DNA from: Trypanosoma brucei
Lineage: Eukaryota
Length of the DNA stretch: 64,000 nucleotides
Direction: 5' to 3'
NCBI GenBank assembly: GCA_000002445.1
Contig: CP000068.1
Span: 288,001 to 352,000, forward strand
Shown: piece by piece, positions 4,598 to 24,300 of the stretch
Layout of the letters: every line of letters starts with the position of its first letter
How positions within the stretch are numbered: the stretch's first letter is position 1
Program-made: the position numbers and the translations under genes
Notes under the pieces: model-generated
What the model was told of the DNA's origin: nothing
The model's database searches: none
Seen by the model: only the letters and a program-made list of their open reading frames with translations

Positions 4598-6238
4598 AGT
4601 TTTCAATTATACTTCGGTTGGTGCACATCTGACGTTGGCTGTGATAGTGCGGGTCCTGTTCTCAGGTGGTGGGGTTCACGTAGCACATACAGATAATTAT
4701 ACGAAAAGTAAAAGAAAAAAGCAAAAAGAAGCAGACAGAGAATGCTGGTTTACCGTCTGTGAATACGAAGTTTGGATATGGAGGTGACGCAAGGGGTAGA
4801 GGAAAGGAAGGGAATTCCTCTTTCTCTTTTCCTGTTTAAGGCATGGACACAGCTGACATATCAAAAAAAAAAAAAGAAATTAGATGCAAAAGAGGTGTAC
4901 GATATGCCATTATAGAGTTTTGCAAAGGTAATGCGGGGCGTTATATATATATATATGTGTGTGTGTCGCCGCAGTTTCCACACCTGGTGCCTCGGGGTTG
5001 AACCCCTTCAGATAAGCGGACGTGAGTGGAAATGTGAGACTGCAAATGAGAACTTCACCAGATGTCGCAAACAGTTTCACCCAACCATCCTATATATATA
5101 TATATATATATATATATACGCATGTTGATATATTTATTTATGTGTTCACTTGTGTAACAAAACATGCTGTTTCCCTCCCCCCGTGTATTCAGATAGAGCC
5201 CGGGGAGTATTGCACACTTGTACGAAAAAGGTTTGTGTCTTTGCATTGGCATATACGTATATATATATATATTGTGTCTACTGTCTTCAGCGGGTGATCT
5301 CGCATCTAGATTGTACCTCTGCATCTTATCATTTCACAGCTGCTACGCGAGCACTTTTCCCCTTTTATTGTTGCCGCTATCGTTTTAATGCCTTTTCCCC
5401 CTATTGATATGTCTCTTTACTTCTTTAAAAATAGGAGGGAAGTTTCTTTCGAGGCGTTTCTACAGGGTGAAAAACTGGTCTCATGTTTATGATCGCAACA
5501 TCTCTTTTACTTTGTGTTGTTACTTCTCCAAGTTACCGCTCCGCGGCGCAGCACGTAAAGCGTAACCGTTGAGTGGGAACTTGTGGAAGCAACAAGGCAG
5601 AAAGAATCACCTGCTGCTGACGTCCTGTTGAATTAAATATATCTTTAAGCTCCGACACTGTACCGAGGAATGGAAAGGCCAAACATATCATGATCCCCTT
5701 CGCGCACCTGCAGAAGGGGAGTAGATGTATTTGTTTGGTTCTGTTGTGTTGTGTTGTGTTCTGTGAGGAGTTACTTTTGTGCGGCGGATAGAAGTTGACG
5801 TATTAGGCACACCTACAGGTGATATGGTGTTTTCTGTCCCTTCCCTGTATTAAATAAGGTGGTGTGTTTCCTATTACCTTTCACCTTTCCGAACTTTGTT
5901 TGTTCGCACTGGTTTTCTTCTTTTACGGTTTATTTGTTCTTAACCTTCTGACCTTTCTGGTGCCGCCACTGTGGATTTTTCTTTTGTTCATCTGTTTTTT
6001 CTTCCTTTCCAAAGTTTGTGGCGAGGGGCGTGTGAGTGGGGGAGGGCGCCAAGTAGAGCACAAGCGCACTCCGTACGGGTGCGGCGAATCGCCTCTAATT
6101 CCCTCTTCAGTATTTTTGCCCCACCACTTCATTCGTACACTTAACGGTGGGCGTCTGTGAGTACGAAGGAGGAGAAAGCACATTCAGAACAAAAGCGGGT
6201 GATAATACACCGTAGAGTGTTTGTATATTTGTGGGCAT

Positions 6239-7018
6239 ATGCGCAACCGATTTGTTCGCATCTCATTTTCCTTGGCGCTCCTGATAGCAGCCTTTTTGGC
6301 AGCGAATGCTGGCAGTGCTACCAATGCCGATAATGAAGCGACCGACTACAGCAGCCACCGCTACAAATATCTTGAAATGCTAAAGGAGGCGGATTTGAAG
6401 CAAATGCTGCACGAGAAGGGGGAGGCTTTCCATCACCTGCGGTCGAAGCGGGAACTTATTCTCGCCGTTTTGAAACTCGAAAAGCGTGAGGAGGCACTCC
6501 GCAAGGCTCGGGTAACGGATACCGTGCAACATGAGGTGCGTGTGGAGTACTGCTCCGGATGAGGATACCGGCGGCACTACGAGGAGGTCGCTGAAAGCCT
6601 CCTTCGAAGCTTGCCGCCGGAATTAAGAGAGCAGCAGAAAGGAAAGAAGCCGTTTATCAAGTTTGTTGGAGTTGTGTATTCTGTAGGAGCCTTTCGTGAG
6701 TTCATTGGTAACATTCTTAGCACAGGGTTCCTCGCCTCGATTGCAATTAGTTTTTTTGCCCCATTTTTGAGGGGCGCGCTCCCACCTCACATTGCTGAAT
6801 GGATTGAGCAGCACCGCGGAATGGTCGTGGGAGCGGGATTTATGATGAACATGGTAGCGTCAAGCTTGCTTCAATCTGGTGCCTTTGAGGTATATCTCAA
6901 TGGCTCACTCATCTATTCGAAGCTAGAGACAGGAGCTGTGCCAACTGCGGAGACGCTAGCAGACCACATCCTGCGCCAAATTATCTCTGGTACAGCAGCA
7001 GGAACGAGGACCGCATAA
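6239..7018 (+). CDS. SELT: Selenoprotein T (SelT), a thioredoxin-fold selenoprotein. The in-frame TGA at 6560-6562 is read as selenocysteine in a CxxU motif.
   Basis: ORFs 6221-6562 and 6611-7018 are in the same frame, separated by a single TGA and no other stop. Read through, the translation is ...VRVEYCSGUGYRRHYEEVAESLL..., which matches the human SELENOT redox motif CVSUGYRRVFEEY. Downstream, SGAFEVYLNGSLIYSKLETGAVPTAETLADHIL matches TGAFEITLNDVPVWSKLESGHLPSMQQLVQIL. N-terminal signal peptide (MRNRFVRISFSLALLIAAFLAANAGSA). The real ATG is at 6239; the ORF-track start at 6221 is TTG. Confidence 0.8.
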
Positions 7019-8466
7019 GGAAAGAAAACTGCTCAGGTGAAGGGTGCCACAAACCAACAAAAGCAGTAAATAACAACCCTCACCCTGACCTCCACAGGGG
7101 CGTAATGCAACTGACATGCACAAATGCGCATACATATTCGAACGCACATGTATGCGCGGGTGGTTACGGAGTTCTTATTTCGCGTATGCAGGGTAAGACA
7201 TGCCGTACCGTGGCCACGCGAGAAAACGGGCAACACCACCGGAAAATACCGAGATTGAAGAAGAAATGCAGGTATTAAGGGTCCTCATTTCTATTCATTT
7301 CATTTTTATGGTGCCGAAAGTCGGCTGTTTTTTTTCTTTGGTTCGTAGTTTTCATCCACAAGTACCACTGCGTTCTCTCCATGTTTCTTCATTCCCCCCT
7401 TTTCTGTCTGTGTCGCCTTATTTATATGACGAGGCGGAGGATCAAAACCCGTCTGTGGTGCCTCCCCTTTGAATCTGTTGTCACCTCCCACCCACCCGGC
7501 AACCCGGCCACCTCCCACTTTCCCTTTTTCTTTTTCTTTTTCTTCTTCCTCTACTACAAAACTCCACTTGACTTGTGACTGTTCGGTGTGGAATCTCTAT
7601 GTTGAGGATTGCGGCTGAGCCAATAAAAAAAAAAAAATGAGGAGCATCACGAGTTTGGGGGAATTCGCTGCAGGTGGTGGTAGCGGTGAAGGTCGGTTGC
7701 CGTAATTAGGGCAAGTGTGTGGTGATGGGCGTAACAGACGGACTAGACGGAAGAAACGAAGGGATTTTTTTTTTTTTTTTTTGGGTTTTGAAAAGCGTGG
7801 TGCTTTTTTTTCTTTTGACTTCGACTGTGCGTATGTGCCTTGTTAGTGCGGGTAGCGAGACGGAGGCGGGGAGATGAGTGGAGGGGCTAAAAAGCCAAGG
7901 GAATAAAGAAAGCTGGTAATGTGTTTTATTTTTGAGGAGTGCTGCCGCAAAAAAAAAAAAAGAGATAAAGAAAGCACTTTGCGAAAGAGAAAATTTAATG
8001 ACCTTCTTGAAAAAAAAAGGGAACGAGTGCGTGTCAATAAGAGCAAGTGTGAGGCAGAGAAAAGGGATTAATCAGCAAGGGAAGCAACGAGATAGGTTTG
8101 TACAACACACAAAATAGCCGGTTCAAGCTAGAGTACATCCTCCAAGATGGACTTAAGCCCACTATGTTGTTAGCAAACTGTGTCTGCACCCAAATATGCC
8201 TTTAGCTCAACGCATTTTGTGCCTACTAAAATTAAAGCAGCCAAAATTTACAGTTCCTCCTTCACCGCACAACATTCAAACGATAACAGGATGCCAAAAG
8301 CATTTCTGCACTAACACAATAGCAGAAGCGACAACTAGACCTCCCAAAATGTCCATCGACTCTCATTCCCCATTTCTTTCATAATTCCCCCCCTCCTTAT
8401 ACGTACATGGAGAGTAAGTTAGCTACAAAAGAAATATGTCGACCACCCTGTGATACCGTTGACCCT

Positions 8467-8648
8467 TTCAGCGCAGTGATTCTTATATACTCTGTCCATC
8501 GTGCTTACGATATACGACTTACTTCTGTCCGTCTTTATGGTGAGCTTATTCACGAGTTCGACCCTTGGTTCAATTACCGTGCAACGCAGTACCTCAGCGA
8601 CAACGGGTGGCGTGCTTTTTTCCAATGGTACGACTACATGAGCTGGTA
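8467..8648 (+). pseudogene. Truncated relic of an STT3 coding segment (equivalent to STT3 residues ~61-121) at the 5' boundary of the STT3 array
   Basis: Positions 8467-8648 are near-identical to 9243-9424 inside STT3A (AVILIYSVHRAYDIRLTSVRLYGELIHEFDPWFNYRATQYLSDNGWRAFFQWYDYMSWY). The frame then breaks and runs straight into sequence homologous to the inter-copy spacer (8651 = 11951 = 15251). Confidence 0.65.
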
Positions 8649-9083
8649 CCTGTTTAGTTACTACACAGTCAGTTAACCTTTTTCCCTTCTGCCACTGTGT
8701 CGGGCGCAGGTTGGTGTTCCACTGGTAACACTCCGTCATAACCAGGCGTGCACGTACCCTCACTCCCTGAAATGTGTGACACCGTGGTAAGGCCAACAAT
8801 ATGTCTTATTGAAATACTTTCTGGTAATGATGTTGTTGAATATATGTATTGTTTGTCCCCAACCGTGTTTGTGAATGCTTCATCTCGCTTGTATGCACTC
8901 GACTCTCCTCTTTCCACCACTCTCCCTAATTTGCTCAACAGTTAAGTCTGTTGTTCATAAAAAACTACGAGGAAAATACGGAACCGGAGGGGCTCGTGAC
9001 CGGTGTTGCTCGCTGAGGGAACCGTGTGTGAGCGAAGTCTAATATAATATCCGATTCGTCCTTTGGGCGTTTCTTTCTGCTTA

Positions 9084-11489
9084 ATGACGAAAGGTGGGAA
9101 AGTAGCTGTGACTAAGGGCTCAGCACAGAGTGATGGTGCTGGTGAGGGAGGGATGAGTAAGGCCAAGTCATCCACTACGTTCGTCGCCACTGGCGGTGGT
9201 TCTTTGCCTGCCTGGGCGCTAAAGGCTGTAAGCACGATTGTGAGTGCAGTGATTCTTATATACTCTGTCCATCGTGCTTACGATATACGACTTACTTCTG
9301 TCCGTCTTTATGGTGAGCTTATTCACGAGTTCGACCCTTGGTTCAATTACCGTGCAACGCAGTACCTCAGCGACAACGGGTGGCGTGCTTTTTTCCAATG
9401 GTACGACTACATGAGCTGGTACCCGCTTGGCCGACCGGTGGGCACAACCATCTTCCCCGGAATGCAGCTTACCGGTGTAGCCATTCATCGTGTGCTGGAA
9501 ATGCTCGGGCGAGGTATGTCCATCAACAATATCTGTGTGTACATTCCTGCATGGTTCGGTAGTATTGCCACTGTGTTGGCTGCTCTCATTGCGTACGAAT
9601 CATCTAATTCGCTCAGTGTCATGGCGTTTACTGCGTACTTTTTTTCCATCGTACCTGCACACCTGATGCGATCAATGGCTGGTGAATTTGACAATGAGTG
9701 TGTTGCAATGGCGGCGATGCTTCTGACGTTCTACATGTGGGTACGATCGTTACGCAGCTCAAGTTCGTGGCCCATTGGCGCTTTAGCTGGTGTGGCATAC
9801 GGGTACATGGTGTCCACGTGGGGTGGTTATATTTTCGTGCTGAACATGGTAGCCTTCCACGCTTCTGTATGTGTACTGCTTGATTGGGCTCGTGGGATAT
9901 ACAGCGTCAGTTTGCTGAGGGCGTATTCACTGTTTTTTGTCATTGGCACTGCCCTTGCGATTTGCGTACCGCCAGTGGAGTGGACGCCCTTCCGGTCGCT
10001 GGAGCAACTGACAGCATTGTTTGTCTTCGTTTTCATGTGGGCACTCCACTACTCGGAATACCTGCGTGAGCGTGCCCGAGCGCCCATTCACTCTTCTAAA
10101 GCACTTCAGATCCGTGCCCGCATTTTCATGGGCACCCTCTCCTTGCTGTTGATTGTGGCAAGTTTGCTTGCCCCGTTCGGATTCTTCAAACCTACAGCGT
10201 ACCGCGTCCGTGCGTTGTTCGTGAAACATACGCGTACCGGAAATCCCCTCGTGGATTCTGTGGCTGAGCATCGGCCGACGACTGCCGGGGCGTATCTGCG
10301 CTACTTTCATGTTTGTTACCCTCTTTGGGGGTGCGGTGGGCTCTCTATGTTGGTATTCATGAAAAAGGACCGCTGGCGCGCCATTGTTTTTCTTGCTTCA
10401 CTTTCCACTGTTACGATGTATTTCAGCGCCCGTATGTCGCGATTACTTCTGTTAGCGGGTCCCGCAGCAACGGCTTGCGCCGGCATGTTCATAGGGGGGC
10501 TTTTTGATCTGGCGCTGTCACAGTTTGGTGATTTGCATAGCCCAAAAGATGCCTCCGGCGATTCCGATCCCGCGGGAGGGTCGAAGCGGGCAAAGGGCAA
10601 AGTTGTTAATGAGCCTTCCAAAAGAGCCATCTTTAGTCACCGCTGGTTTCAACGTTTAGTGCAATCGTTGCCCGTCCCGCTACGACGTGGTATCGCGGTT
10701 GTGGTGCTCGTATGTCTCTTCGCCAATCCCATGAGACACTCATTCGAAAAGTCCTGCGAGAAAATGGCACATGCACTTTCATCTCCAAGGATCATTGCCG
10801 TGACTGATCTACCCAATGGAGAGAGAGTCCTCGCCGATGATTACTACGTGTCGTACTTGTGGCTGCGAAACAATACGCCTGAAGATGCCCGTATTCTCTC
10901 ATGGTGGGACTACGGGTATCAAATCACTGGAATTGGCAATCGCACAACCCTTGCGGACGGTAACACATGGAGTCACAAGCACATAGCAACTATTGGGAAG
11001 ATGCTTACATCCCCTGTGAAGGAGTCACATGCTCTTATACGCCATCTCGCTGATTATGTGCTGATATGGGCCGGTGAGGATCGGGGCGATTTACTTAAAT
11101 CGCCACACATGGCTCGGATAGGCAACAGTGTATATCGCGATATGTGTTCAGAAGACGATCCTAGATGCAGGCAGTTCGGCTTTGAGGGAGGTGACCTCAA
11201 TAAGCCTACGCCTATGATGCAGCGGTCCCTATTATACAATCTGCACAGGTTTGGTACGGATGGCGGGAAGACACAACTGGATAAGAACATGTTTCAGCTC
11301 GCCTACGTGTCAAAGTATGGTTTGGTGAAGATCTACAAGGTGGTGAATGTGAGTGAAGAGAGCAAGGCGTGGGTCGCAGACCCAAAGAACCGCGTATGCG
11401 ACCCGCCCGGATCTTGGATATGCGCCGGCCAGTACCCGCCAGCGAAGGAGATCCAAGACATGTTAGCGAAGCGGTTCCATTACGAATGA
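9084..11489 (+). CDS. STT3A: Oligosaccharyltransferase catalytic subunit STT3, copy 1 (STT3A-like). It is shorter than copies 2 and 3 because of an in-frame TGA.
   Basis: The ORF-track start at 9063 is TTG; the ATG is at 9084 (MTKGGKVAV...). Multi-pass transmembrane protein. The conserved WWDYGYQITGIGNRTTLADGNTW motif (the STT3 WWDYG catalytic motif) and the DK-type C-terminal domain are present. A unique central segment (~10290-10850) differs from copies B and C. Confidence 0.9.
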   Translation: MTKGGKVAVTKGSAQSDGAGEGGMSKAKSSTTFVATGGGSLPAWALKAVSTIVSAVILIYSVHRAYDIRLTSVRLYGELIHEFDPWFNYRATQYLSDNGWRAFFQWYDYMSWYPLGRPVGTTIFPGMQLTGVAIHRVLEMLGRGMSINNICVYIPAWFGSIATVLAALIAYESSNSLSVMAFTAYFFSIVPAHLMRSMAGEFDNECVAMAAMLLTFYMWVRSLRSSSSWPIGALAGVAYGYMVSTWGGYIFVLNMVAFHASVCVLLDWARGIYSVSLLRAYSLFFVIGTALAICVPPVEWTPFRSLEQLTALFVFVFMWALHYSEYLRERARAPIHSSKALQIRARIFMGTLSLLLIVASLLAPFGFFKPTAYRVRALFVKHTRTGNPLVDSVAEHRPTTAGAYLRYFHVCYPLWGCGGLSMLVFMKKDRWRAIVFLASLSTVTMYFSARMSRLLLLAGPAATACAGMFIGGLFDLALSQFGDLHSPKDASGDSDPAGGSKRAKGKVVNEPSKRAIFSHRWFQRLVQSLPVPLRRGIAVVVLVCLFANPMRHSFEKSCEKMAHALSSPRIIAVTDLPNGERVLADDYYVSYLWLRNNTPEDARILSWWDYGYQITGIGNRTTLADGNTWSHKHIATIGKMLTSPVKESHALIRHLADYVLIWAGEDRGDLLKSPHMARIGNSVYRDMCSEDDPRCRQFGFEGGDLNKPTPMMQRSLLYNLHRFGTDGGKTQLDKNMFQLAYVSKYGLVKIYKVVNVSEESKAWVADPKNRVCDPPGSWICAGQYPPAKEIQDMLAKRFHYE

Positions 11490-12202
11490 CCACATCGTTT
11501 CAATCGCCGCAATCGAAGTGACGCTTATTATCGTGCGTATATGCGTCAGATGGGTTAGCCCTGTGAAGATAAATTCGATTTGATGTGACAATGAAATAAG
11601 GTATGGGAAAGGGAGAACAAACTGATAAATGATAAGTGAATGAAGTAAAGTAAGGAAGGCTGCCACTATATGCTTTGAGATTTTCATTTAACTTTATGTG
11701 GAAAAGTTTAGTAAATAATATAACCCCTAAGAAAAGTCGATTGTATTGTGAAATTTTTTTGGTGTAAGAGCGTTGGGAAGAGGTACAAGAGTGGTCTACA
11801 TTTTCAGGCGATCTATGGTGACATCGCCGCTTGTGCTCCCGTAAGTGCGTTAGGTGGAGGTGTGCAGGTGTATCAACCTTGAAGGTTGTTCTCGCGCTGC
11901 GTTTTCCATATATAGTAGTTAACTGTGATGCTGCGCATGACTAATTTTTCTGTTTAGTCACTACACAGTCAGTTGACCTTTTTCCTTTCTGCCACTGTGT
12001 CGGGCGCAGGTTGGTGTTCCACTGGTAACACTCCGTCATAACCAGGCGTGCACGTACCCTCACTCCCTGAAATGTGTGACACCGTGGTAAGGCCAACAAT
12101 ATGTCTTATTGAAATACTTTCTGGTAATGATGTTGTTGAATATATGTATTGTTTGTCCCCAACCGTGTTTGTGAATGCTTCATCTCGCTTGTATGCACTC
12201 GA

Positions 12203-12383: not shown

Positions 12384-14849
12384 ATGACGAAAGGTGGGAA
12401 AGTAGCTGTGACTAAGGGCTCAGCACAGAGTGATGGTGCTGGTGAGGGAGGGATGAGTAAGGCCAAGTCATCCACTACGTTCGTCGCCACTGGCGGTGGT
12501 TCTTTGCCTGCCTGGGCGCTAAAGGCTGTAAGCACGGTTGTGAGTGCAGTGATTCTTATATACTCTGTCCATCGTGCTTACGATATACGACTTACTTCTG
12601 TCCGTCTTTATGGTGAGCTTATTCACGAGTTCGACCCTTGGTTCAATTACCGTGCAACGCAGTACCTCAGCGACAACGGGTGGCGTGCTTTTTTCCAATG
12701 GTACGACTACATGAGCTGGTACCCGCTTGGCCGACCGGTGGGCACAACCATCTTCCCCGGAATGCAGCTTACCGGTGTAGCCATTCATCGTGTGCTGGAA
12801 ATGCTCGGGCGAGGTATGTCCATCAACAATATCTGTGTGTACATTCCTGCATGGTTCGGTAGTATTGCCACTGTGTTGGCTGCTCTCATTGCGTACGAAT
12901 CATCTAATTCGCTCAGTGTCATGGCGTTTACTGCGTACTTTTTTTCCATCGTACCTGCACACCTGATGCGATCAATGGCTGGTGAATTTGACAATGAGTG
13001 TGTTGCAATGGCGGCGATGCTTCTGACGTTCTACATGTGGGTACGATCGTTACGCAGCTCAAGTTCGTGGCCCATTGGCGCTTTAGCTGGTGTGGCATAC
13101 GGGTACATGGTGTCCACGTGGGGTGGTTATATTTTCGTGCTGAACATGGTAGCCTTCCACGCTTCTGTATGTGTACTGCTTGATTGGGCTCGTGGGACAT
13201 ACAGCGTCAGTTTGCTGAGGGCGTATTCACTGTTTTTTGTCATTGGCACTGCCCTTGCGATTTGCGTACCACCAGTGGAGTGGACGCCCTTCCGGTCGCT
13301 GGAGCAACTGACAGCATTGTTTGTCTTCGTTTTCATGTGGGCACTCCACTACTCGGAATACCTGCGTGAGCGTGCCCGAGCGCCCATTCACTCTTCTAAA
13401 GCACTTCAGATCCGTGCCCGCATTTTCATGGGCACCCTCTCCTTGCTGTTGATTGTAGCTATCTACCTATTTTCGACAGGATACTTCAGGCCGTTTTCTT
13501 CTCGTGTCCGTGCGTTGTTCGTGAAACATACGCGTACCGGAAATCCCCTCGTGGATTCTGTGGCTGAGCACCATCCGGCGTCGAATGATGATTTCTTTGG
13601 TTACCTTCATGTATGTTACAACGGCTGGATAATTGGCTTTTTCTTCATGTCCGTGTCGTGCTTTTTCCATTGTACACCGGGAATGTCGTTCCTGCTGTTG
13701 TACTCTATACTTGCGTACTACTTCTCTCTCAAGATGAGTCGTCTGCTGTTACTTTCTGCACCTGTGGCTTCCATACTCACTGGCTATGTTGTGGGATCTA
13801 TTGTTGACCTCGCAGCAGATTGTTTCGCCGCTTCCGGAACAGAGCACGCCGACAGTAAGGAGCATCAAGGGAAAGCCCGTGGTAAGGGACAGAAGGAACA
13901 AATCACTGTCGAGTGTGGGTGCCATAATCCCTTCTACAAATTATGGTGCAATTCATTTTCCTCCCGCCTGGTAGTTGGTAAGTTTTTTGTCGTTGTTGTC
14001 CTTTCCATCTGTGGACCCACATTTCTTGGGTCTAACTTCCGGATATATTCTGAGCAATTCGCAGACAGCATGTCGAGCCCCCAGATTATAATGAGGGCAA
14101 CTGTCGGTGGACGACGAGTTATCTTGGATGATTACTACGTGTCGTACTTGTGGCTGCGAAACAATACGCCTGAAGATGCCCGTATTCTCTCATGGTGGGA
14201 CTACGGGTATCAAATCACTGGAATTGGCAATCGCACAACCCTTGCGGATGGTAACACATGGAATCACGAGCACATAGCAACTATTGGGAAGATGCTTACA
14301 TCCCCTGTGAAGGAGTCACATGCTCTTATACGCCATCTCGCTGATTATGTGCTGATATGGGCCGGTTATGATGGCAGCGATTTACTTAAATCGCCACACA
14401 TGGCTCGGATAGGCAACAGTGTATATCGCGATATATGCTCAGAGGATGATCCGCTGTGTACGCAGTTCGGGTTTTATAGTGGTGACTTCAGTAAACCTAC
14501 GCCTATGATGCAGCGGTCCCTATTATACAATCTGCACAGGTTTGGTACGGATGGCGGGAAGACACAACTGGATAAGAACATGTTTCAGCTCGCCTACGTG
14601 TCAAAGTATGGTTTGGTGAAGATCTACAAGGTGATGAATGTGAGTGAAGAGAGCAAGGCGTGGGTTGCAGACCCAAAGAACCGTAAGTGCGATGCACCTG
14701 GATCTTGGATATGCACCGGCCAGTACCCGCCAGCGAAGGAGATCCAAGACATGTTAGCGAAGAGGATTGACTACGAACAACTCGAGGATTTCAACCGCCG
14801 CAATCGAAGTGACGCTTATTATCGTGCGTATATGCGTCAGATGGGTTAG
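12384..14849 (+). CDS. STT3B: Oligosaccharyltransferase catalytic subunit STT3, copy 2 (STT3B-like)
   Basis: ATG at 12384 (the track start at 12363 is TTG). 821-aa frame with the WWDYGYQ motif. Full-length C-terminus ...AKRIDYEQLEDFNRRNRSDAYYRAYMRQMG. Confidence 0.9.
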   Translation: MTKGGKVAVTKGSAQSDGAGEGGMSKAKSSTTFVATGGGSLPAWALKAVSTVVSAVILIYSVHRAYDIRLTSVRLYGELIHEFDPWFNYRATQYLSDNGWRAFFQWYDYMSWYPLGRPVGTTIFPGMQLTGVAIHRVLEMLGRGMSINNICVYIPAWFGSIATVLAALIAYESSNSLSVMAFTAYFFSIVPAHLMRSMAGEFDNECVAMAAMLLTFYMWVRSLRSSSSWPIGALAGVAYGYMVSTWGGYIFVLNMVAFHASVCVLLDWARGTYSVSLLRAYSLFFVIGTALAICVPPVEWTPFRSLEQLTALFVFVFMWALHYSEYLRERARAPIHSSKALQIRARIFMGTLSLLLIVAIYLFSTGYFRPFSSRVRALFVKHTRTGNPLVDSVAEHHPASNDDFFGYLHVCYNGWIIGFFFMSVSCFFHCTPGMSFLLLYSILAYYFSLKMSRLLLLSAPVASILTGYVVGSIVDLAADCFAASGTEHADSKEHQGKARGKGQKEQITVECGCHNPFYKLWCNSFSSRLVVGKFFVVVVLSICGPTFLGSNFRIYSEQFADSMSSPQIIMRATVGGRRVILDDYYVSYLWLRNNTPEDARILSWWDYGYQITGIGNRTTLADGNTWNHEHIATIGKMLTSPVKESHALIRHLADYVLIWAGYDGSDLLKSPHMARIGNSVYRDICSEDDPLCTQFGFYSGDFSKPTPMMQRSLLYNLHRFGTDGGKTQLDKNMFQLAYVSKYGLVKIYKVMNVSEESKAWVADPKNRKCDAPGSWICTGQYPPAKEIQDMLAKRIDYEQLEDFNRRNRSDAYYRAYMRQMG

Positions 14850-15683: not shown

Positions 15684-18149
15684 ATGACGAAAGGTGGGAA
15701 AGTAGCTGTGACTAAGGGCTCAGCACAGAGTGATGGTGCTGGTGAGGGAGGGATGAGTAAGGCCAAGTCATCCACTACGTTCGTCGCCACTGGCGGTGGT
15801 TCTTTGCCTGCCTGGGCGCTAAAGGCTGTAAGCACGGTTGTGAGTGCAGTGATTCTTATATACTCTGTCCATCGTGCTTACGATATACGACTTACTTCTG
15901 TCCGTCTTTATGGTGAGCTTATTCACGAGTTCGACCCTTGGTTCAATTACCGTGCAACGCAGTACCTCAGCGACAACGGGTGGCGTGCTTTTTTCCAATG
16001 GTACGACTACATGAGCTGGTACCCGCTTGGCCGACCGGTGGGCACAACCATCTTCCCCGGAATGCAGCTTACCGGTGTAGCCATTCATCGTGTGCTGGAA
16101 ATGCTCGGGCGAGGTATGTCCATCAACAATATCTGTGTGTACATTCCTGCATGGTTCGGTAGTATTGCCACTGTGTTGGCTGCTCTCATTGCGTACGAGT
16201 CATCTAATTCGCTCAGTGTCATGGCGTTTACTGCGTACTTTTTTTCCATCGTACCTGCACACCTGATGCGATCAATGGCTGGTGAATTTGACAATGAGTG
16301 TGTTGCAATGGCGGCGATGCTTCTGACGTTCTACATGTGGGTACGATCGTTACGCAGCTCAAGTTCGTGGCCCATTGGCGCTTTAGCTGGTGTGGCATAC
16401 GGGTACATGGTGTCCACGTGGGGTGGTTATATTTTCGTGCTGAACATGGTAGCCTTCCACGCTTCTGTATGTGTACTGCTTGATTGGGCTCGTGGGACAT
16501 ACAGCGTCAGTTTGCTGAGGGCGTATTCACTGTTTTTTGTCATTGGCACTGCCCTTGCGATTTGCGTACCACCAGTGGAGTGGACGCCCTTCCGGTCGCT
16601 GGAGCAACTGACAGCATTGTTTGTCTTCGTTTTCATGTGGGCACTCCACTACTCGGAATACCTGCGTGAGCGTGCCCGAGCGCCCATTCACTCTTCTAAA
16701 GCACTTCAGATCCGTGCCCGCATTTTCATGGGCACCCTCTCCTTGCTGTTGATTGTGGCTATCTACCTATTTTCGACAGGATACTTCAGGTCGTTTTCTT
16801 CTCGTGTCCGTGCGTTGTTCGTGAAACATACGCGTACCGGAAATCCCCTCGTGGATTCTGTGGCTGAGCATCGGCCGACGACTGCCGGGGCCTTCCTACG
16901 TCATCTTCATGTGTGTTACAACGGCTGGATAATTGGCTTTTTCTTCATGTCCGTGTCGTGCTTTTTCCATTGTACACCGGGAATGTCGTTCCTGCTGTTG
17001 TACTCTATACTTGCGTACTACTTCTCTCTCAAGATGAGTCGTCTGCTGTTACTTTCTGCACCTGTGGCTTCCATACTCACTGGCTATGTTGTGGGATCTA
17101 TTGTTGACCTCGCAGCAGATTGTTTCGCCGCTTCCGGAACAGAGCACGCCGACAGTAAGGAGCATCAAGGGAAAGCCCGTGGTAAGGGACAAAAGAGACA
17201 AATCACTGTCGAGTGTGGGTGCCATAATCCCTTCTACAAATTATGGTGCAATTCATTTTCCTCCCGCCTGGTAGTTGGTAAGTTTTTTGTCGTTGTTGTC
17301 CTTTCCATCTGTGGACCCACATTTCTTGGGTCTGAGTTTAGGGCTCATTGCGAACGTTTCTCCGTAAGTGTTGCTAATCCGCGTATTATATCGAGTATTA
17401 GGCACTCCGGTAAGTTGGTTCTTGCCGATGATTACTACGTGTCGTACTTGTGGCTGCGAAACAATACGCCTGAAGATGCCCGTATTCTCTCATGGTGGGA
17501 CTACGGGTATCAAATCACTGGAATTGGCAATCGCACAACCCTTGCGGACGGTAACACATGGAATCACGAGCACATAGCAACTATTGGGAAGATGCTTACA
17601 TCCCCTGTGAAGGAGTCACATGCTCTTATACGCCATCTCGCTGATTATGTGCTGATATGGGCCGGTGAGGATCGGGGCGATTTACGTAAGTCACGGCATA
17701 TGGCTCGGATAGGCAACAGTGTATATCGCGATATGTGTTCAGAAGACGATCCGCTGTGTACGCAGTTCGGGTTTTATAGTGGTGACTTCAATAAACCTAC
17801 GCCTATGATGCAGCGGTCCCTATTATACAATCTGCACAGGTTTGGTACGGATGGCGGGAAGACACAACTGGATAAGAACATGTTTCAGCTCGCCTACGTG
17901 TCAAAGTATGGTTTGGTGAAGATCTACAAGGTGATGAATGTGAGTGAAGAGAGCAAGGCGTGGGTTGCAGACCCAAAGAACCGTAAGTGCGATGCACCTG
18001 GATCTTGGATATGCGCCGGCCAGTACCCGCCAGCGAAGGAGATCCAAGACATGTTAGCGAAGAGGATTGACTACGAACAACTCGAGGATTTCAATCGCCG
18101 CAATCGAAGTGACGCTTATTATCGTGCGTATATGCGTCAGATGGGTTAG
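15684..18149 (+). CDS. STT3C: Oligosaccharyltransferase catalytic subunit STT3, copy 3 (STT3C-like). It is a mosaic of A-like and B-like segments.
   Basis: ATG at 15684. The N-terminal 370 aa are identical to B. Segment AEHRPTTAGA matches A, the following YNGWIIGFFFMSVSCFFHC... matches B, and there is a unique stretch SEFRAHCERFSVSVANPRIISSIRHSGKLV. The WWDYGYQ motif is present. Confidence 0.9.
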   Translation: MTKGGKVAVTKGSAQSDGAGEGGMSKAKSSTTFVATGGGSLPAWALKAVSTVVSAVILIYSVHRAYDIRLTSVRLYGELIHEFDPWFNYRATQYLSDNGWRAFFQWYDYMSWYPLGRPVGTTIFPGMQLTGVAIHRVLEMLGRGMSINNICVYIPAWFGSIATVLAALIAYESSNSLSVMAFTAYFFSIVPAHLMRSMAGEFDNECVAMAAMLLTFYMWVRSLRSSSSWPIGALAGVAYGYMVSTWGGYIFVLNMVAFHASVCVLLDWARGTYSVSLLRAYSLFFVIGTALAICVPPVEWTPFRSLEQLTALFVFVFMWALHYSEYLRERARAPIHSSKALQIRARIFMGTLSLLLIVAIYLFSTGYFRSFSSRVRALFVKHTRTGNPLVDSVAEHRPTTAGAFLRHLHVCYNGWIIGFFFMSVSCFFHCTPGMSFLLLYSILAYYFSLKMSRLLLLSAPVASILTGYVVGSIVDLAADCFAASGTEHADSKEHQGKARGKGQKRQITVECGCHNPFYKLWCNSFSSRLVVGKFFVVVVLSICGPTFLGSEFRAHCERFSVSVANPRIISSIRHSGKLVLADDYYVSYLWLRNNTPEDARILSWWDYGYQITGIGNRTTLADGNTWNHEHIATIGKMLTSPVKESHALIRHLADYVLIWAGEDRGDLRKSRHMARIGNSVYRDMCSEDDPLCTQFGFYSGDFNKPTPMMQRSLLYNLHRFGTDGGKTQLDKNMFQLAYVSKYGLVKIYKVMNVSEESKAWVADPKNRKCDAPGSWICAGQYPPAKEIQDMLAKRIDYEQLEDFNRRNRSDAYYRAYMRQMG

Positions 18150-21366: not shown

Positions 21367-24300
21367 ATGGTAGACGGGCGATCTTCTGCATCAATTGTTG
21401 CCGTTGATCCCGAAAGGGCTGCGCGTGAGCGCGACGCAGCAGCGCGTGCCCTTCTTCAAGACAGTCCGCTACACACGACCATGCAATATGCAACGTCTGG
21501 TCTTGAGCTTACCGTTCCCTACGCACTTAAGGTGGTTGCCAGTGCTGACACCTTCGATCGCGCTAAGGAGGTTGCCGATGAGGTGCTACGCTGCGCATGG
21601 CAACTCGCCGACACCGTGTTGAACAGTTTCAACCCGAACAGTGAGGTTTCACTCGTGGGTCGCCTGCCTGTGGGGCAGAAGCACCAAATGTCTGCTCCAC
21701 TCAAGCGTGTGATGGCATGCTGCCAGCGTGTGTATAACTCATCGGCTGGATGTTTTGATCCCTCCACAGCACCCGTCGCAAAGGCGCTGCGTGAGATTGC
21801 ACTGGGGAAGGAGCGGAACAATGCTTGTCTGGAGGCACTTACTCAAGCGTGTACGCTTCCCAACAGTTTTGTGATCGATTTCGAAGCTGGAACTATCAGC
21901 CGTAAGCACGAGCATGCGTCTCTGGACCTAGGTGGGGTTAGCAAAGGTTATATCGTTGATTATGTCATTGATAATATCAATGCTGCTGGATTTCAAAACG
22001 TTTTTTTTGACTGGGGTGGAGACTGCCGTGCGAGTGGTATGAACGCGCGCAATACCCCGTGGGTTGTTGGTATAACTCGCCCTCCGTCCCTTGATATGCT
22101 CCGCAACCCGCCAAAGGAAGCGTCGTATATCAGCGTTATCTCTCTCGACAACGAGGCCCTTGCCACGAGTGGCGATTATGAAAACTTAATATACACCGCT
22201 GATGATAAACCCCTTACCTGCACTTATGACTGGAAGGCGAAGGAACTGATGAAACCTTCTCAGTCCAATATCGCGCAGGTATCGGTTAAATGTTATAGCG
22301 CCATGTACGCTGACGCGCTTGCGACTGCGTGTTTCATAAAGCGGGATCCCGCGAAGGTTCGACAGCTGCTGGACGGTTGGCGTTACGTGCGTGATACAGT
22401 GAGAGATTACAGGGTCTACGTTCGTGAAAATGAGCGAGTAGCGAAGATGTTTGAAATCGCCACAGAGGATGCGGAAATGAGGAAGAGGCGGATCAGCAAC
22501 ACACTTCCCGCTCGTGTCATTGTGGTGGGCGGTGGTCTCGCGGGTTTGTCCGCGGCCATCGAAGCTGCAGGATGCGGTGCTCAGGTTGTGCTTATGGAGA
22601 AGGAGGCGAAGCTCGGAGGCAACAGCGCCAAGGCGACATCTGGTATCAACGGATGGGGCACACGTGCTCAGGCGAAGGCAAGCATTGTGGATGGTGGGAA
22701 ATACTTCGAGCGTGACACATACAAGTCTGGTATCGGGGGTAACACCGATCCTGCCCTTGTGAAGACACTTTCTATGAAAAGTGCTGACGCTATTGGGTGG
22801 CTGACCTCGTTGGGTGTACCGCTGACGGTATTGTCACAGCTTGGGGGTCACAGCCGCAAGCGCACACATCGGGCACCGGATAAGAAAGATGGTACACCTC
22901 TACCTATCGGATTTACAATCATGAAAACCCTCGAGGATCACGTGCGTGGTAACCTTTCTGGCCGCATCACCATAATGGAAAACTGCAGTGTAACGTCGTT
23001 GCTCAGTGAGACGAAGGAACGGCCAGATGGCACTAAACAGATACGAGTTACTGGTGTGGAGTTCACGCAGGCTGGCAGTGGGAAGACGACCATACTTGCA
23101 GATGCTGTCATCCTTGCCACTGGTGGATTTTCTAACGACAAAACTGCAGACTCCCTGCTTCGTGAGCACGCCCCGCACTTGGTCAACTTCCCTACGACGA
23201 ATGGCCCGTGGGCGACAGGTGATGGCGTGAAACTTGCACAGCGACTTGGCGCTCAACTGGTGGATATGGACAAGGTCCAGTTGCATCCGACAGGCCTCAT
23301 CAACCCGAAGGATCCAGCGAACCCTACAAAGTTCCTTGGACCTGAGGCGCTACGTGGATCCGGTGGCGTTTTGTTAAACAAGCAAGGCAAGCGCTTCGTT
23401 AATGAACTTGACCTCCGTTCTGTGGTATCGAAAGCCATCATGGAACAGGGTGCGGAATATCCTGGATCGGGTGGTAGCATGTTCGCCTACTGTGTGTTGA
23501 ATGCTGCGGCGCAGAAGCTCTTTGGTGTCAGCTCACACGAGTTCTACTGGAAGAAGATGGGTCTCTTCGTGAAGGCTGACACCATGAGGGACCTCGCTGC
23601 ACTCATTGGGTGCCCAGTGGAATCTGTGCAGCAGACGCTGGAGGAGTACGAGCGGCTCTCCACATCACAGCGTTCCTGCCCCATCACGCGCAAGAGCGTC
23701 TATCCGTGCGTGCTCGGCACTAAGGGCCCCTACTACGTCGCCTTCGTGACACCTTCGATTCACTACACAATGGGTGGATGTCTCATCTCGCCTTCTGCTG
23801 AAATACAAATGAAGAACACATCATCACGCGCTCCACTGAGTCACAGCAACCCAATCCTCGGGTTATTTGGTGCCGGTGAGGTAACGGGTGGTGTGCACGG
23901 TGGGAACCGGTTGGGCGGCAATTCGCTGCTTGAGTGCGTCGTGTTTGGGAGAATTGCGGGTGATCGGGCCTCGACCATCCTTCAGAGGAAGTCCTCAGCA
24001 CTTTCCTTCAAGGTGTGGACGACCGTGGTGCTGCGTGAAGTACGCGAAGGTGGTGTGTACGGTGCTGGGTCCCGCGTGCTTCGCTTTAATTTACCCGGGG
24101 CGCTGCAACGGTCTGGTCTGAGCCTCGGCCAATTTATCGCAATTCGTGGTGATTGGGACGGTCAGCAGTTGATCGGTTATTACAGTCCCATCACGCTGCC
24201 AGATGATCTTGGCATGATCGATATACTCGCCCGCAGTGATAAGGGGACGCTGAGGGAGTGGATTTCCGCTCTGGAGCCGGGTGACGCTGTGGAGATGAAG

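What the first reader, a model, noticed from the sequence alone, without database searches (positions are those of the whole stretch)
11460..11560. STT3A ends at an in-frame TGA while the conserved 22-codon C-terminal tail of B/C persists in-frame downstream
B and C end ...AKRIDYEQLEDFNRRNRSDAYYRAYMRQMG*. In copy A the homologous region reads ...AKRFHYE-TGA-PHRFNRRNRSDAYYRAYMRQMG-TAG. A nonsense codon replaces the CAA (Q) codon, and the tail stays in frame and conserved for 22 more codons up to the same TAG. This is either a very recent truncation, a sequencing error, or a read-through context.
Basis: seen in the sequence. Interest (0 to 1): 0.5.

Follow-up and report, generated by a model that had tools for sequence, protein, structure and literature searches.

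The report
STT3A real stop, gene-converted tail
The early stop codon of the Trypanosoma brucei STT3A gene is most likely genuine and is already annotated, and the intact-looking tail behind it is untranslated DNA kept identical to the neighbouring gene copies by copy-and-paste recombination, so the finding is ordinary.

Summary
The window is T. brucei brucei TREU927 chromosome 5, carrying the tandem STT3A/B/C array. STT3A (ATG 9084) ends at TGA 11487-11489. Twenty-two in-frame codons follow (11490-11555), 66/66 nt identical to copy C, up to the TAG (11556-11558) that B and C use.

Tail conservation is not evidence of translation. The tail lies in a 196-nt island (11498-11693) that is 0-1 nt different among all three copies. 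The island runs 135 nt past the B/C stop into non-coding DNA, with A-specific sequence on both sides.

The stop sits in a 26-nt patch with 13 differences, and CAA to TGA needs two changes. So this is not a lone recent nonsense mutation.

An 801-aa STT3A ending ...RFHYE is also deposited for T. b. rhodesiense. Published work notes the shorter C-terminus, shows the recombinant protein is active, and shows that an HA3 tag fused at E801 on the only remaining allele leaves function intact.

Best explanation: a real, fixed stop, plus a relic tail in the 3'UTR kept identical by gene conversion between the paralogues. A sequencing error is very unlikely. Selenocysteine insertion or programmed read-through is unsupported. 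Low interest, already known.

The parts
9084..11489 (+). TbSTT3A coding sequence (801 aa plus TGA), a single-subunit oligosaccharyltransferase
   Evidence: ORF list and translation. Exact match to XP_844763.1/AAZ11204.1 of T. b. brucei TREU927. The near-identical P0001 carries PF02516 and PF21436.
11472..11497 (+). A-specific diverged patch containing the stop codon: 13 differences in 26 nt against both B and C
   Evidence: Mismatch positions 11472, 75, 77, 78, 80, 87, 88, 91, 92, 93, 95, 96, 97.
11487..11489 (+). TGA stop codon of STT3A, homologous to the CAA (Gln) codon of B and C, followed by C (UGA-C context)
11490..11555 (+). Relic tail: 22 in-frame codons (PHRFNRRNRSDAYYRAYMRQMG), now the first 66 nt of the STT3A 3'UTR
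   Evidence: 66/66 identical to C and 65/66 to B. Published tagging primers place the start of the 3'UTR at 11490.
11556..11558 (+). Relic TAG, homologous to the functional stop of STT3B (14847-14849) and STT3C (18147-18149)
11498..11693 (+). 196-nt identity island shared by A, B and C (most of the tail plus 135 nt of non-coding 3'UTR), the inferred gene-conversion tract
   Evidence: A differs from B only at 11504 and from C only at 11633 over this span. There are 0-2 differences among seven copies from TREU927, DAL972 and T. equiperdum over 11499-11693. Diverged sequence flanks it on both sides.
11694..11806 (+). A-specific distal 3'UTR / intergenic stretch; identity with the B-to-C spacer resumes at about 11807
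   Evidence: 60-nt mismatch profile and alignment.
12384..14849 (+). TbSTT3B (821 aa) with the full C-terminal tail
15684..18149 (+). TbSTT3C (821 aa) with the full C-terminal tail
8407..8676 (+). Truncated STT3 pseudogene fragment (89-aa ORF covering about residues 54-113 of STT3), heading the array
   Evidence: The same 89-aa fragment is called in DAL972 and T. equiperdum. Described as 'a preceding truncated TbSTT3 pseudogene' in PMC5724017.

Best explanation
The TGA at 11487-11489 is the genuine, fixed stop codon of TbSTT3A. It yields an active 801-aa oligosaccharyltransferase that lacks the 23-residue C-terminal tail (QLEDFN...YYRAYMRQMG) of STT3B/C. The 22 in-frame 'tail' codons behind it are not translated and form the start of the STT3A 3'UTR. 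They look intact because they lie in a 196-nt tract (11498-11693) that gene conversion or unequal recombination keeps identical among the three 3.3-kb tandem repeat units. In B and C this tract is partly coding and under purifying selection, so A repeatedly receives a fresh copy. The 26-nt patch holding the stop is a diverged A-type remnant that has escaped, or been selected against, homogenisation. Shown here: the sequence anatomy, the equal identity of coding-relic and non-coding parts of the tract, the same protein end in a second subspecies, and paralogue-derived patches between alleles. Taken from the literature: the enzyme's activity and the tolerance of a tag at E801. Inferred: the conversion mechanism itself, and any selection for the short end.
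For: (1) The array is a mosaic. A, B and C are essentially identical from about 8690 to 10140 (370 nt of upstream DNA plus about 1.06 kb of CDS). They are about 60% mismatched across most of 10261-10840, with a first mismatch patch at 10141-10200. Further 3' they alternate between short diverged patches and long identical runs.
(2) From 11498 to 11693, A differs from B at 1 position and from C at 1 position. The tail has 0-1 differences in its 66 nt, and the following 135 nt, non-coding in all three genes, also have 0-1. Conservation is therefore not coding-specific.
(3) The stop patch has 13/26 differences, and 21 of the 22 A-C mismatches in 11381-11693 fall before 11498.
(4) T. b. rhodesiense STT3A (801 aa) ends RFHYE. 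It differs from the TREU927 protein at 10 residues, and at 8 of these the rhodesiense residue equals the B and/or C residue. That is the signature of inter-paralogue conversion.
(5) Recombination in this array is documented: a chimeric TbSTT3B/C fusion gene was confirmed on genomic DNA of lectin-resistant lines (PMC4351956; PMC5035034).
(6) PMC5421464 states that the TbSTT3A C-terminal domain is 23 aa shorter than in B/C, and purifies active recombinant enzyme.
(7) PMC5724017 fused HA3 at the end of the ORF on the single remaining allele. Its primers match 11465-11486 and 11490-11510 exactly, and VSG221 glycosylation stayed normal.
(8) Tail loss is tolerated elsewhere. All T. vivax STT3 copies end ...YEQV/...YRQV with no relic downstream, and two other homologues (P0044, P0058) stop at the same point.
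Against: No DNA of STT3A from another isolate could be retrieved. The DAL972 and T. equiperdum loci fetched contain only B/C-type copies, so fixation of the TGA rests on protein deposits and on published constructs. The rhodesiense deposit could be partly primer-defined: a sister deposit, P0128, ends inside the tail at 809 aa. T. brucei subspecies are too similar for a test of paralogues being more alike than orthologues on this block. A single complex mutation creating the 26-nt patch recently cannot be formally excluded. No translation data were available, so low-level read-through is untested.
Confidence: 0.85

Rival explanations
1. Recent truncation without conversion. STT3A carried the full tail until very recently, and the downstream codons are intact only because there has been no time for decay.
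For: The tail has zero differences from copy C. T. brucei subspecies are very closely related, so sharing of the stop by brucei and rhodesiense does not prove great age.
Against: The stop is embedded in 13 differences within 26 nt and needs two substitutions, which is not a fresh point mutation. The adjacent 135 nt of non-coding UTR are equally identical, and the island is bounded 3' by A-specific sequence. The identity is therefore a tract property, not slow decay. Alleles show ongoing paralogue-derived patches.
Confidence: 0.08
2. Programmed or regulated read-through of UGA-C produces a minor 824-aa STT3A isoform bearing the tail, and selection on that isoform helps to keep the tail intact.
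For: UGA followed by C is the leakiest stop context in eukaryotes (established knowledge, not tested here). The tail is in frame with no further stop until the ancestral TAG. The tail motif is strongly conserved across STT3 proteins.
Against: Conservation is no higher in the tail than in the non-coding 135 nt behind it. No known extended read-through motif follows the stop; the sequence is CCA CAU, not CUAG or CARYYA. The 141 nt from 11480 fold no better than shuffles, z = +0.58. The E801-HA3 fusion on the sole allele, which removes any access to the tail, is functional, and 801-aa recombinant enzyme is active.
Confidence: 0.05
3. The TGA encodes selenocysteine, directed by a SECIS element in the shared 3'UTR.
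For: T. brucei has the Sec machinery, and a true selenoprotein gene (SelT, TGA at 6560-6562) lies 5 kb upstream. ATGA...AA...GA pattern matches occur at 11629 and 11640 in the 3'UTR island.
Against: In a scan calibrated to recover the SelT SECIS (7426-7472, upper stem-loop -14.7 kcal/mol), the STT3 matches are the weakest of 21 plus-strand matches (-2.5 and -2.7 kcal/mol). They are equally present behind B and C, which have no in-frame TGA. The homologous residue in B/C and other species is Gln, not Cys. The position is not in a redox motif.
Confidence: 0.01
4. A sequencing or assembly error in the TREU927 reference, either a false TGA or a tail wrongly assembled from B/C reads.
For: Tandem near-identical repeats are error-prone to assemble. 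The DAL972 and T. equiperdum assemblies of this array appear collapsed or fragmented.
Against: The T. b. rhodesiense deposit has the same end. Published primers designed across this junction amplified from laboratory-strain genomic DNA, and correct insertion of the tag at STT3A was confirmed by Southern blot. An independent group reports the C-terminal domain as 23 aa shorter. A two-base change within a 13-difference patch is not a typical base-call error.
Confidence: 0.02

Closest known systems
TbSTT3A (Tb927.5 array; XP_844763.1), the Man5GlcNAc2-preferring single-subunit oligosaccharyltransferase of T. brucei
   Same: It is this gene. The sequence is identical to the annotated 801-aa product. 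The shorter C-terminus is noted in PMC5421464. The tandem array with a leading pseudogene is described in PMC2722254 and PMC5724017.
   Different: In the papers I read, the relic tail in the 3'UTR and its membership of a 196-nt identity tract are not discussed. That is a descriptive addition, not a new phenomenon.
Concerted evolution of tandem paralogues by gene conversion (as in trypanosomatid tandem arrays, rDNA and globin genes)
   Same: A mosaic of perfectly identical tracts and saturated patches. Tracts ignore coding/non-coding boundaries. Alleles differ by paralogue-derived patches. In T. vivax, T. cruzi and T. melophagium the A-like and B-like paralogues also share nearly identical N- and C-terminal parts but keep distinct central regions.
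   Different: Here a converted tract restores an apparently intact coding tail behind a stop codon that itself is not converted. This gives the false appearance of a read-through extension.
Conserved stop-codon read-through extensions (for example UGA-CUAG genes in animals)
   Same: An in-frame, stop-free, conserved extension after UGA-C.
   Different: Conservation is explained by DNA homogenisation and extends equally into non-coding DNA. No CUAG motif or stimulatory structure is present, and function does not need the extension.
T. vivax STT3 paralogues and other tail-less STT3s (P0004, P0008, P0044, P0058)
   Same: They end within two residues of the TbSTT3A stop position, showing that the QLEDFN...YM tail is a dispensable module.
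   Different: In T. vivax every copy lacks the tail and no relic remains downstream. In T. brucei only A lacks it, and the relic is refreshed from B/C.

Membership tests
STT3/PglB oligosaccharyltransferase | STT3 Pfam domains (PF02516, PF21436) | tested here: met
   Precomputed Pfam hits for the 99%-identical cluster representative P0001 and for all top homologues. Human STT3B 6s7t_A matches at E = 2e-101.
STT3/PglB oligosaccharyltransferase | Catalytic WWDYG motif in the luminal domain | tested here: met
   SWWDYGYQITG is present in A, B and C. The W604/D606/Y607/G608 columns are invariant in the 69-sequence alignment.
STT3/PglB oligosaccharyltransferase | Oligosaccharyltransferase activity of the 801-aa product | not testable with these tools
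   Literature only. Purified recombinant TbSTT3A glycosylates peptides (PMC5421464). E801-HA3 is functional in vivo (PMC5724017).
Concerted evolution / gene conversion between tandem paralogues | Tandem direct repeats with long tracts of near-100% identity next to saturated divergence | tested here: met
   The repeat period is 3300 bp. There are 0-1 mismatches per 60 nt over about 8700-10140 and 11498-11693, against 35-45 per 60 nt in the central region.
Concerted evolution / gene conversion between tandem paralogues | Identity tracts cross coding/non-coding boundaries | tested here: met
   The island 11498-11693 spans the B/C stop codon. The 5' tract spans the start codon and 370 nt upstream.
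Concerted evolution / gene conversion between tandem paralogues | Alleles or strains differ by patches that match another paralogue | tested here: met
   At 8 of the 10 residue differences between TREU927 and rhodesiense STT3A, the rhodesiense residue equals the B and/or C state.
Concerted evolution / gene conversion between tandem paralogues | For this tract, paralogues within a genome more alike than orthologues between genomes | tested here: inconclusive
   All seven T. brucei-group copies differ by only 0-2 nt, so there is no power. At protein level the pattern holds for the termini in T. vivax, T. cruzi and T. melophagium paralogue pairs.
Programmed stop-codon read-through | Downstream conservation exceeding that of neighbouring non-coding sequence | tested here: not met
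   The tail has 0-1 differences in 66 nt and the following UTR has 0-1 in 135 nt.
Programmed stop-codon read-through | Leaky stop context or stimulatory element | tested here: inconclusive
   UGA-C is present, but no CUAG/CARYYA-type motif follows. The downstream fold is not more stable than shuffles, z = +0.58.
Programmed stop-codon read-through | Extended protein detected | not testable with these tools
   This needs mass spectrometry of the junction peptide or reporter assays.
Eukaryotic selenoprotein | SECIS element in the 3'UTR | tested here: not met
   The pattern matches at 11629 and 11640 have upper stem-loops of only -2.5 and -2.7 kcal/mol, against -14.7 for the SelT control. They are the weakest of 21 matches. 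Rfam detects neither these nor the control, so Rfam is uninformative.
Eukaryotic selenoprotein | Cys (or Sec) at the homologous position in relatives | tested here: not met
   The homologous residue is Gln in B, C, T. congolense, T. cruzi and most of the 69 homologues.

The most novel reading that the evidence does not exclude
The UGA-C stop of STT3A is partially read through. Trypanosomes would then make a minor STT3A isoform carrying the ancient QLEDFN...YM-type tail (with PHR replacing LED), and gene conversion from B/C plus selection on this isoform would together keep the extension intact. A weaker variant is that selection actively maintains the stop patch against conversion, because a tail-less STT3A is needed for its distinct co-translational, Man5GlcNAc2-specific role.
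Probability: 0.05. Interest if true: 0.45.

Novelty: already known. Interest (0 to 1): 0.12.

Why it matters
It matters little biologically. TbSTT3A's short C-terminus is annotated, published and experimentally tolerated.

The case is useful as a caution for genome scanning. In tandem gene families subject to gene conversion, an intact, in-frame, conserved extension behind a stop codon is not evidence of read-through or of a recent mutation. Neighbouring paralogues can keep refreshing non-coding DNA.

Tail peptides and ribosome footprints beyond 11497 are identical to those from STT3B/C, so only the junction at 11472-11497 is diagnostic.

A modest open question remains: does the absence of the widely conserved tail contribute to the higher expression of STT3A or to its distinct specificity?

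Tried and rejected
1. Retrieving STT3A DNA from other isolates failed. An exact-protein lookup of the window STT3A and of the rhodesiense protein found no contigs.
2. The DAL972 and T. equiperdum loci, reached through the B/C-type proteins, hold only B/C-type ends and no A-type central region. The arrays appear collapsed or fragmented there.
3. A scan of metagenome contigs for the junction with a free stop codon found nothing.
4. Rfam at gathering and at permissive thresholds found no SECIS. It also missed the real SelT SECIS, so that negative result carries no weight.
5. My first crude SECIS pattern hit only the STT3 UTR island in the whole plus strand, which looked exciting. However, it missed the positive control.
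6. A second thermodynamic scan was also miscalibrated.
7. The third scan recovered SelT and ranked the STT3 matches last, so I rejected the SECIS idea.
8. No solved structure of TbSTT3A exists in the PDB copy searched.
9. Literature searches for read-through in T. brucei and for STT3 gene conversion returned nothing specific.
10. The AlphaFold2 model of STT3B shows only that the tail is a low-confidence linker (residues 800-805) followed by a short helix (811-820). That gives no functional clue.
Full report
**Identity of the locus.** The window carries three tandem STT3 genes with an exact 3300-bp period. Their ORFs start at 9063, 12363 and 15663, and the ATG codons are at 9084, 12384 and 15684. 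The 801-aa product of the first gene is identical to XP_844763.1/AAZ11204.1 of Trypanosoma brucei brucei TREU927. The other two are XP_844764.1 and XP_844765.1, both 821 aa. These are the well-studied TbSTT3A, TbSTT3B and TbSTT3C single-subunit oligosaccharyltransferases on chromosome 5 (PMC2722254). An 89-aa STT3 fragment at 8407-8676 heads the array. It is the 'preceding truncated TbSTT3 pseudogene' of PMC5724017.

**Check of the observation.**
- Copy A reads ...AKRFHYE-TGA-PHRFNRRNRSDAYYRAYMRQMG-TAG.
- Copies B and C read ...AKRIDYEQLEDFNRRNRSDAYYRAYMRQMG-TAG.
- The TGA is at 11487-11489, the 22 in-frame codons at 11490-11555, and the relic TAG at 11556-11558.
- B and C have 23 residues beyond the point where A stops. 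A is only 20 aa shorter overall because its central region is 3 codons longer.

**Anatomy at the DNA level.** A 60-nt mismatch profile of the three repeat units shows a mosaic.
- All three copies are essentially identical from about 8690 to 10140. This covers 370 nt upstream plus the first ~1.06 kb of coding sequence.
- A is about 60% mismatched to B/C across most of 10261-10840, with a first mismatch patch at 10141-10200.
- Further 3', short diverged patches alternate with long identical runs.
- In 11381-11693, 21 of the 22 A-versus-C mismatches lie before 11498. Thirteen of them fall within 11472-11497, the patch that contains the stop.
- From 11498 to 11693, A differs from B only at 11504 and from C only at 11633.
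- This 196-nt island comprises most of the 'tail' and then 135 nt that are non-coding in all three genes.
- The island is bounded 3' by about 110 nt of A-specific sequence (11694-~11806). After that, identity with the B-to-C spacer resumes.
- The same island is nearly invariant (0-2 differences) in the B/C-type copies of T. b. gambiense DAL972 and T. equiperdum.

**What this means for the tail.** The tail is no better conserved than the non-coding DNA directly behind it, and there are no indels, so frame preservation is automatic. The apparent 'conserved, in-frame extension' is a property of a DNA tract. It is not a signature of translation. The simplest mechanism is concerted evolution by gene conversion or unequal exchange between the tandem units. 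Three observations support this.
- The identity tracts cross both the start-codon and the stop-codon boundaries.
- The T. b. rhodesiense STT3A protein differs from the TREU927 protein at 10 residues. At 8 of these the rhodesiense residue is the one found in B and/or C.
- Recombinant B/C chimeric genes arise in this array under lectin selection (PMC4351956; PMC5035034).

Across species the same pattern is visible. T. vivax, T. cruzi and T. melophagium each have an A-like and a B-like paralogue. These paralogues differ in the central region but share nearly identical termini within each species. So the A/B split is old and the termini are homogenised.

**Is the stop real, and how old is it?**
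- An independently deposited T. b. rhodesiense STT3A (ADG03035.1) also has 801 aa ending RFHYE.
- PMC5421464 states that the C-terminal domain of TbSTT3A is 23 amino acids shorter than in B/C. That paper purified active recombinant enzyme.
- PMC5724017 tagged the single remaining STT3A allele in situ. The ORF primer ends at 11486 and the '3'-UTR' primer starts at 11490; I confirmed both as exact, unique matches.
- The resulting E801-HA3 fusion cannot reach the tail, yet it supports normal VSG221 glycosylation.

A sequencing error is therefore very unlikely, and tail translation is not needed for the measured function. The stop is not a fresh point mutation either. CAA to TGA needs two changes, and every flanking codon but TAC-GAA is altered (13 of 26 nt). 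This divergence is close to that of the central region (about 60% mismatched), which suggests the patch is a remnant of old A-type sequence. A single complex mutational event cannot be formally excluded.

One caveat applies to the rhodesiense evidence. A sister rhodesiense deposit (P0128, 809 aa) ends inside the tail. These entries may therefore be bounded by a reverse primer placed in the shared tail. In that case the A-type TGA would still be internal to the amplicon, but I could not verify this.

**Read-through and selenocysteine.** The context UGA-C is the leakiest known in eukaryotes (established knowledge, not tested here). T. brucei does decode UGA as Sec. A bona fide selenoprotein T gene lies 5 kb upstream (6221-7018), with TGA at 6560-6562 inside the CxxU motif VEYCSG-U-G.

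I therefore looked for a SECIS element.
- Rfam found none, but it also missed the SelT element.
- A crude ATGA/AA/GA pattern hit only the STT3 UTR island, but it missed the control.
- A calibrated scan recovered the SelT SECIS (ATGA at 7426, GA at 7471-7472, upper stem-loop -14.7 kcal/mol). It ranked the STT3 matches (11629, 11640) as the weakest of 21, at -2.5 and -2.7 kcal/mol.
- The STT3 matches also occur behind B and C, which have no in-frame TGA. The homologous residue elsewhere is Gln, not Cys.

Sec insertion is rejected. For generic read-through there is no extended motif, and the downstream 141 nt fold no better than shuffled sequence (z = +0.58). Basal leakiness remains untested.

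**Context of the tail.** In a 69-sequence alignment of kinetoplastid and other protist STT3 proteins, the motif F/Y-x-Q-L-E-D-F-N...Y-x-x-x-Y-M is present in the great majority. It is absent from:
- TbSTT3A;
- all T. vivax copies, which end ...YEQV/...YRQV with no recognisable relic downstream;
- two environmental homologues that end at the same point (P0044, P0058).

It is shortened in two Leishmania paralogues. The tail is therefore an ancient but dispensable module that has been lost repeatedly at the same boundary. An AlphaFold2 model of STT3B (pTM 0.86) shows the tail as a low-confidence linker (residues 800-805) followed by a short helix (811-820).

**Verdict.** The explanation is ordinary and the key fact is already in the literature: STT3A has a genuine stop and a shorter, functional C-terminus. 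The only addition here is descriptive. The relic tail sits in a 196-nt gene-conversion tract of the 3'UTR, which explains its perfect preservation.

There is also a practical warning. Proteomic or Ribo-seq signals from the tail cannot be assigned to STT3A, because the sequence is identical in STT3B/C. Only the junction 11472-11497, and the peptide FHYE-X-PHR, are diagnostic.

Noticed in passing
window 6221-7018 (+), TGA at 6560-6562; SECIS at about 7426-7472: A selenoprotein T-like gene. It is one reading frame interrupted by an in-frame TGA inside the CxxU motif VEYCSG-U-GYRRHYEE. A GC-rich SECIS-type hairpin (ATGA...AAAA...TGA, upper stem -14.7 kcal/mol) lies about 400 nt after the stop. The DAL972 orthologue fragment hits PF10262 (Rdx). 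Rfam's SECIS models did not detect this element even at E <= 10.
   Followed up: partly
window 8407-8676 (+): An 89-aa ORF that is a fragment of STT3 (about residues 54-113, ...AVILIYSVHRAYDIRL...DYMSWY). It is the truncated STT3 pseudogene at the head of the array, and is also called in DAL972 and T. equiperdum.
   Followed up: partly
window 9063/12363/15663; L002 6701/10001: The repeat period is exactly 3300 bp for both A-to-B and B-to-C. This holds although the A start-to-TAG span is 9 nt longer than that of B; the A-to-B spacer is 9 nt shorter in compensation. T. equiperdum also shows a 3300-bp spacing. This may be coincidence or a by-product of unequal exchange.
   Followed up: no
L001 (DAL972 chr5 267324-289789), L003 (DAL972 chr5 end), L002 (T. 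equiperdum): The public assemblies of T. b. gambiense DAL972 and T. equiperdum show only one or two B/C-type STT3 genes at the locus. Extra STT3 fragments sit at the chromosome end in DAL972, and no A-type central region was found in the fetched DNA. The array is probably collapsed or mis-assembled there. In L002 a further B/C-type STT3 piece appears at 21906-22036, beyond the fumarate-reductase-like gene.
   Followed up: partly
L004 4001-10337, L005 (T. vivax SOPI01000326.1): T. vivax has a tandem array of at least four STT3 genes with a 2918-bp period: one B-like copy followed by several A-like copies. All end ...Y(E/R)QV-TAG, without the conserved tail and without a relic downstream. The two residues after KR differ between the A-like (RG) and B-like (TD) copies, at the same spot where T. 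brucei A (FH) differs from B (ID).
   Followed up: partly
window 11393-11408: This is another A-specific patch (8 differences in 16 nt; NRVCDPPGSW versus NRKCDAPGSW). The A state (V, PP) matches Leishmania STT3s (NRVCHPPGSW). That suggests the A-specific patches are old sequence that has escaped homogenisation.
   Followed up: no
P0128 (ADG03033.1, T. b. rhodesiense): A C-like STT3 deposit of 809 aa ends at ...EDFNRRNRS inside the tail. It is probably a partial CDS bounded by a PCR primer. This is relevant when judging how independent the rhodesiense STT3A deposit is.
   Followed up: no
window about 5080-5130: A (TA)n-type simple repeat, read as IYIYIYIY in several frames, lies in the long gene-poor spacer between 4440 and 6220.
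   Followed up: no
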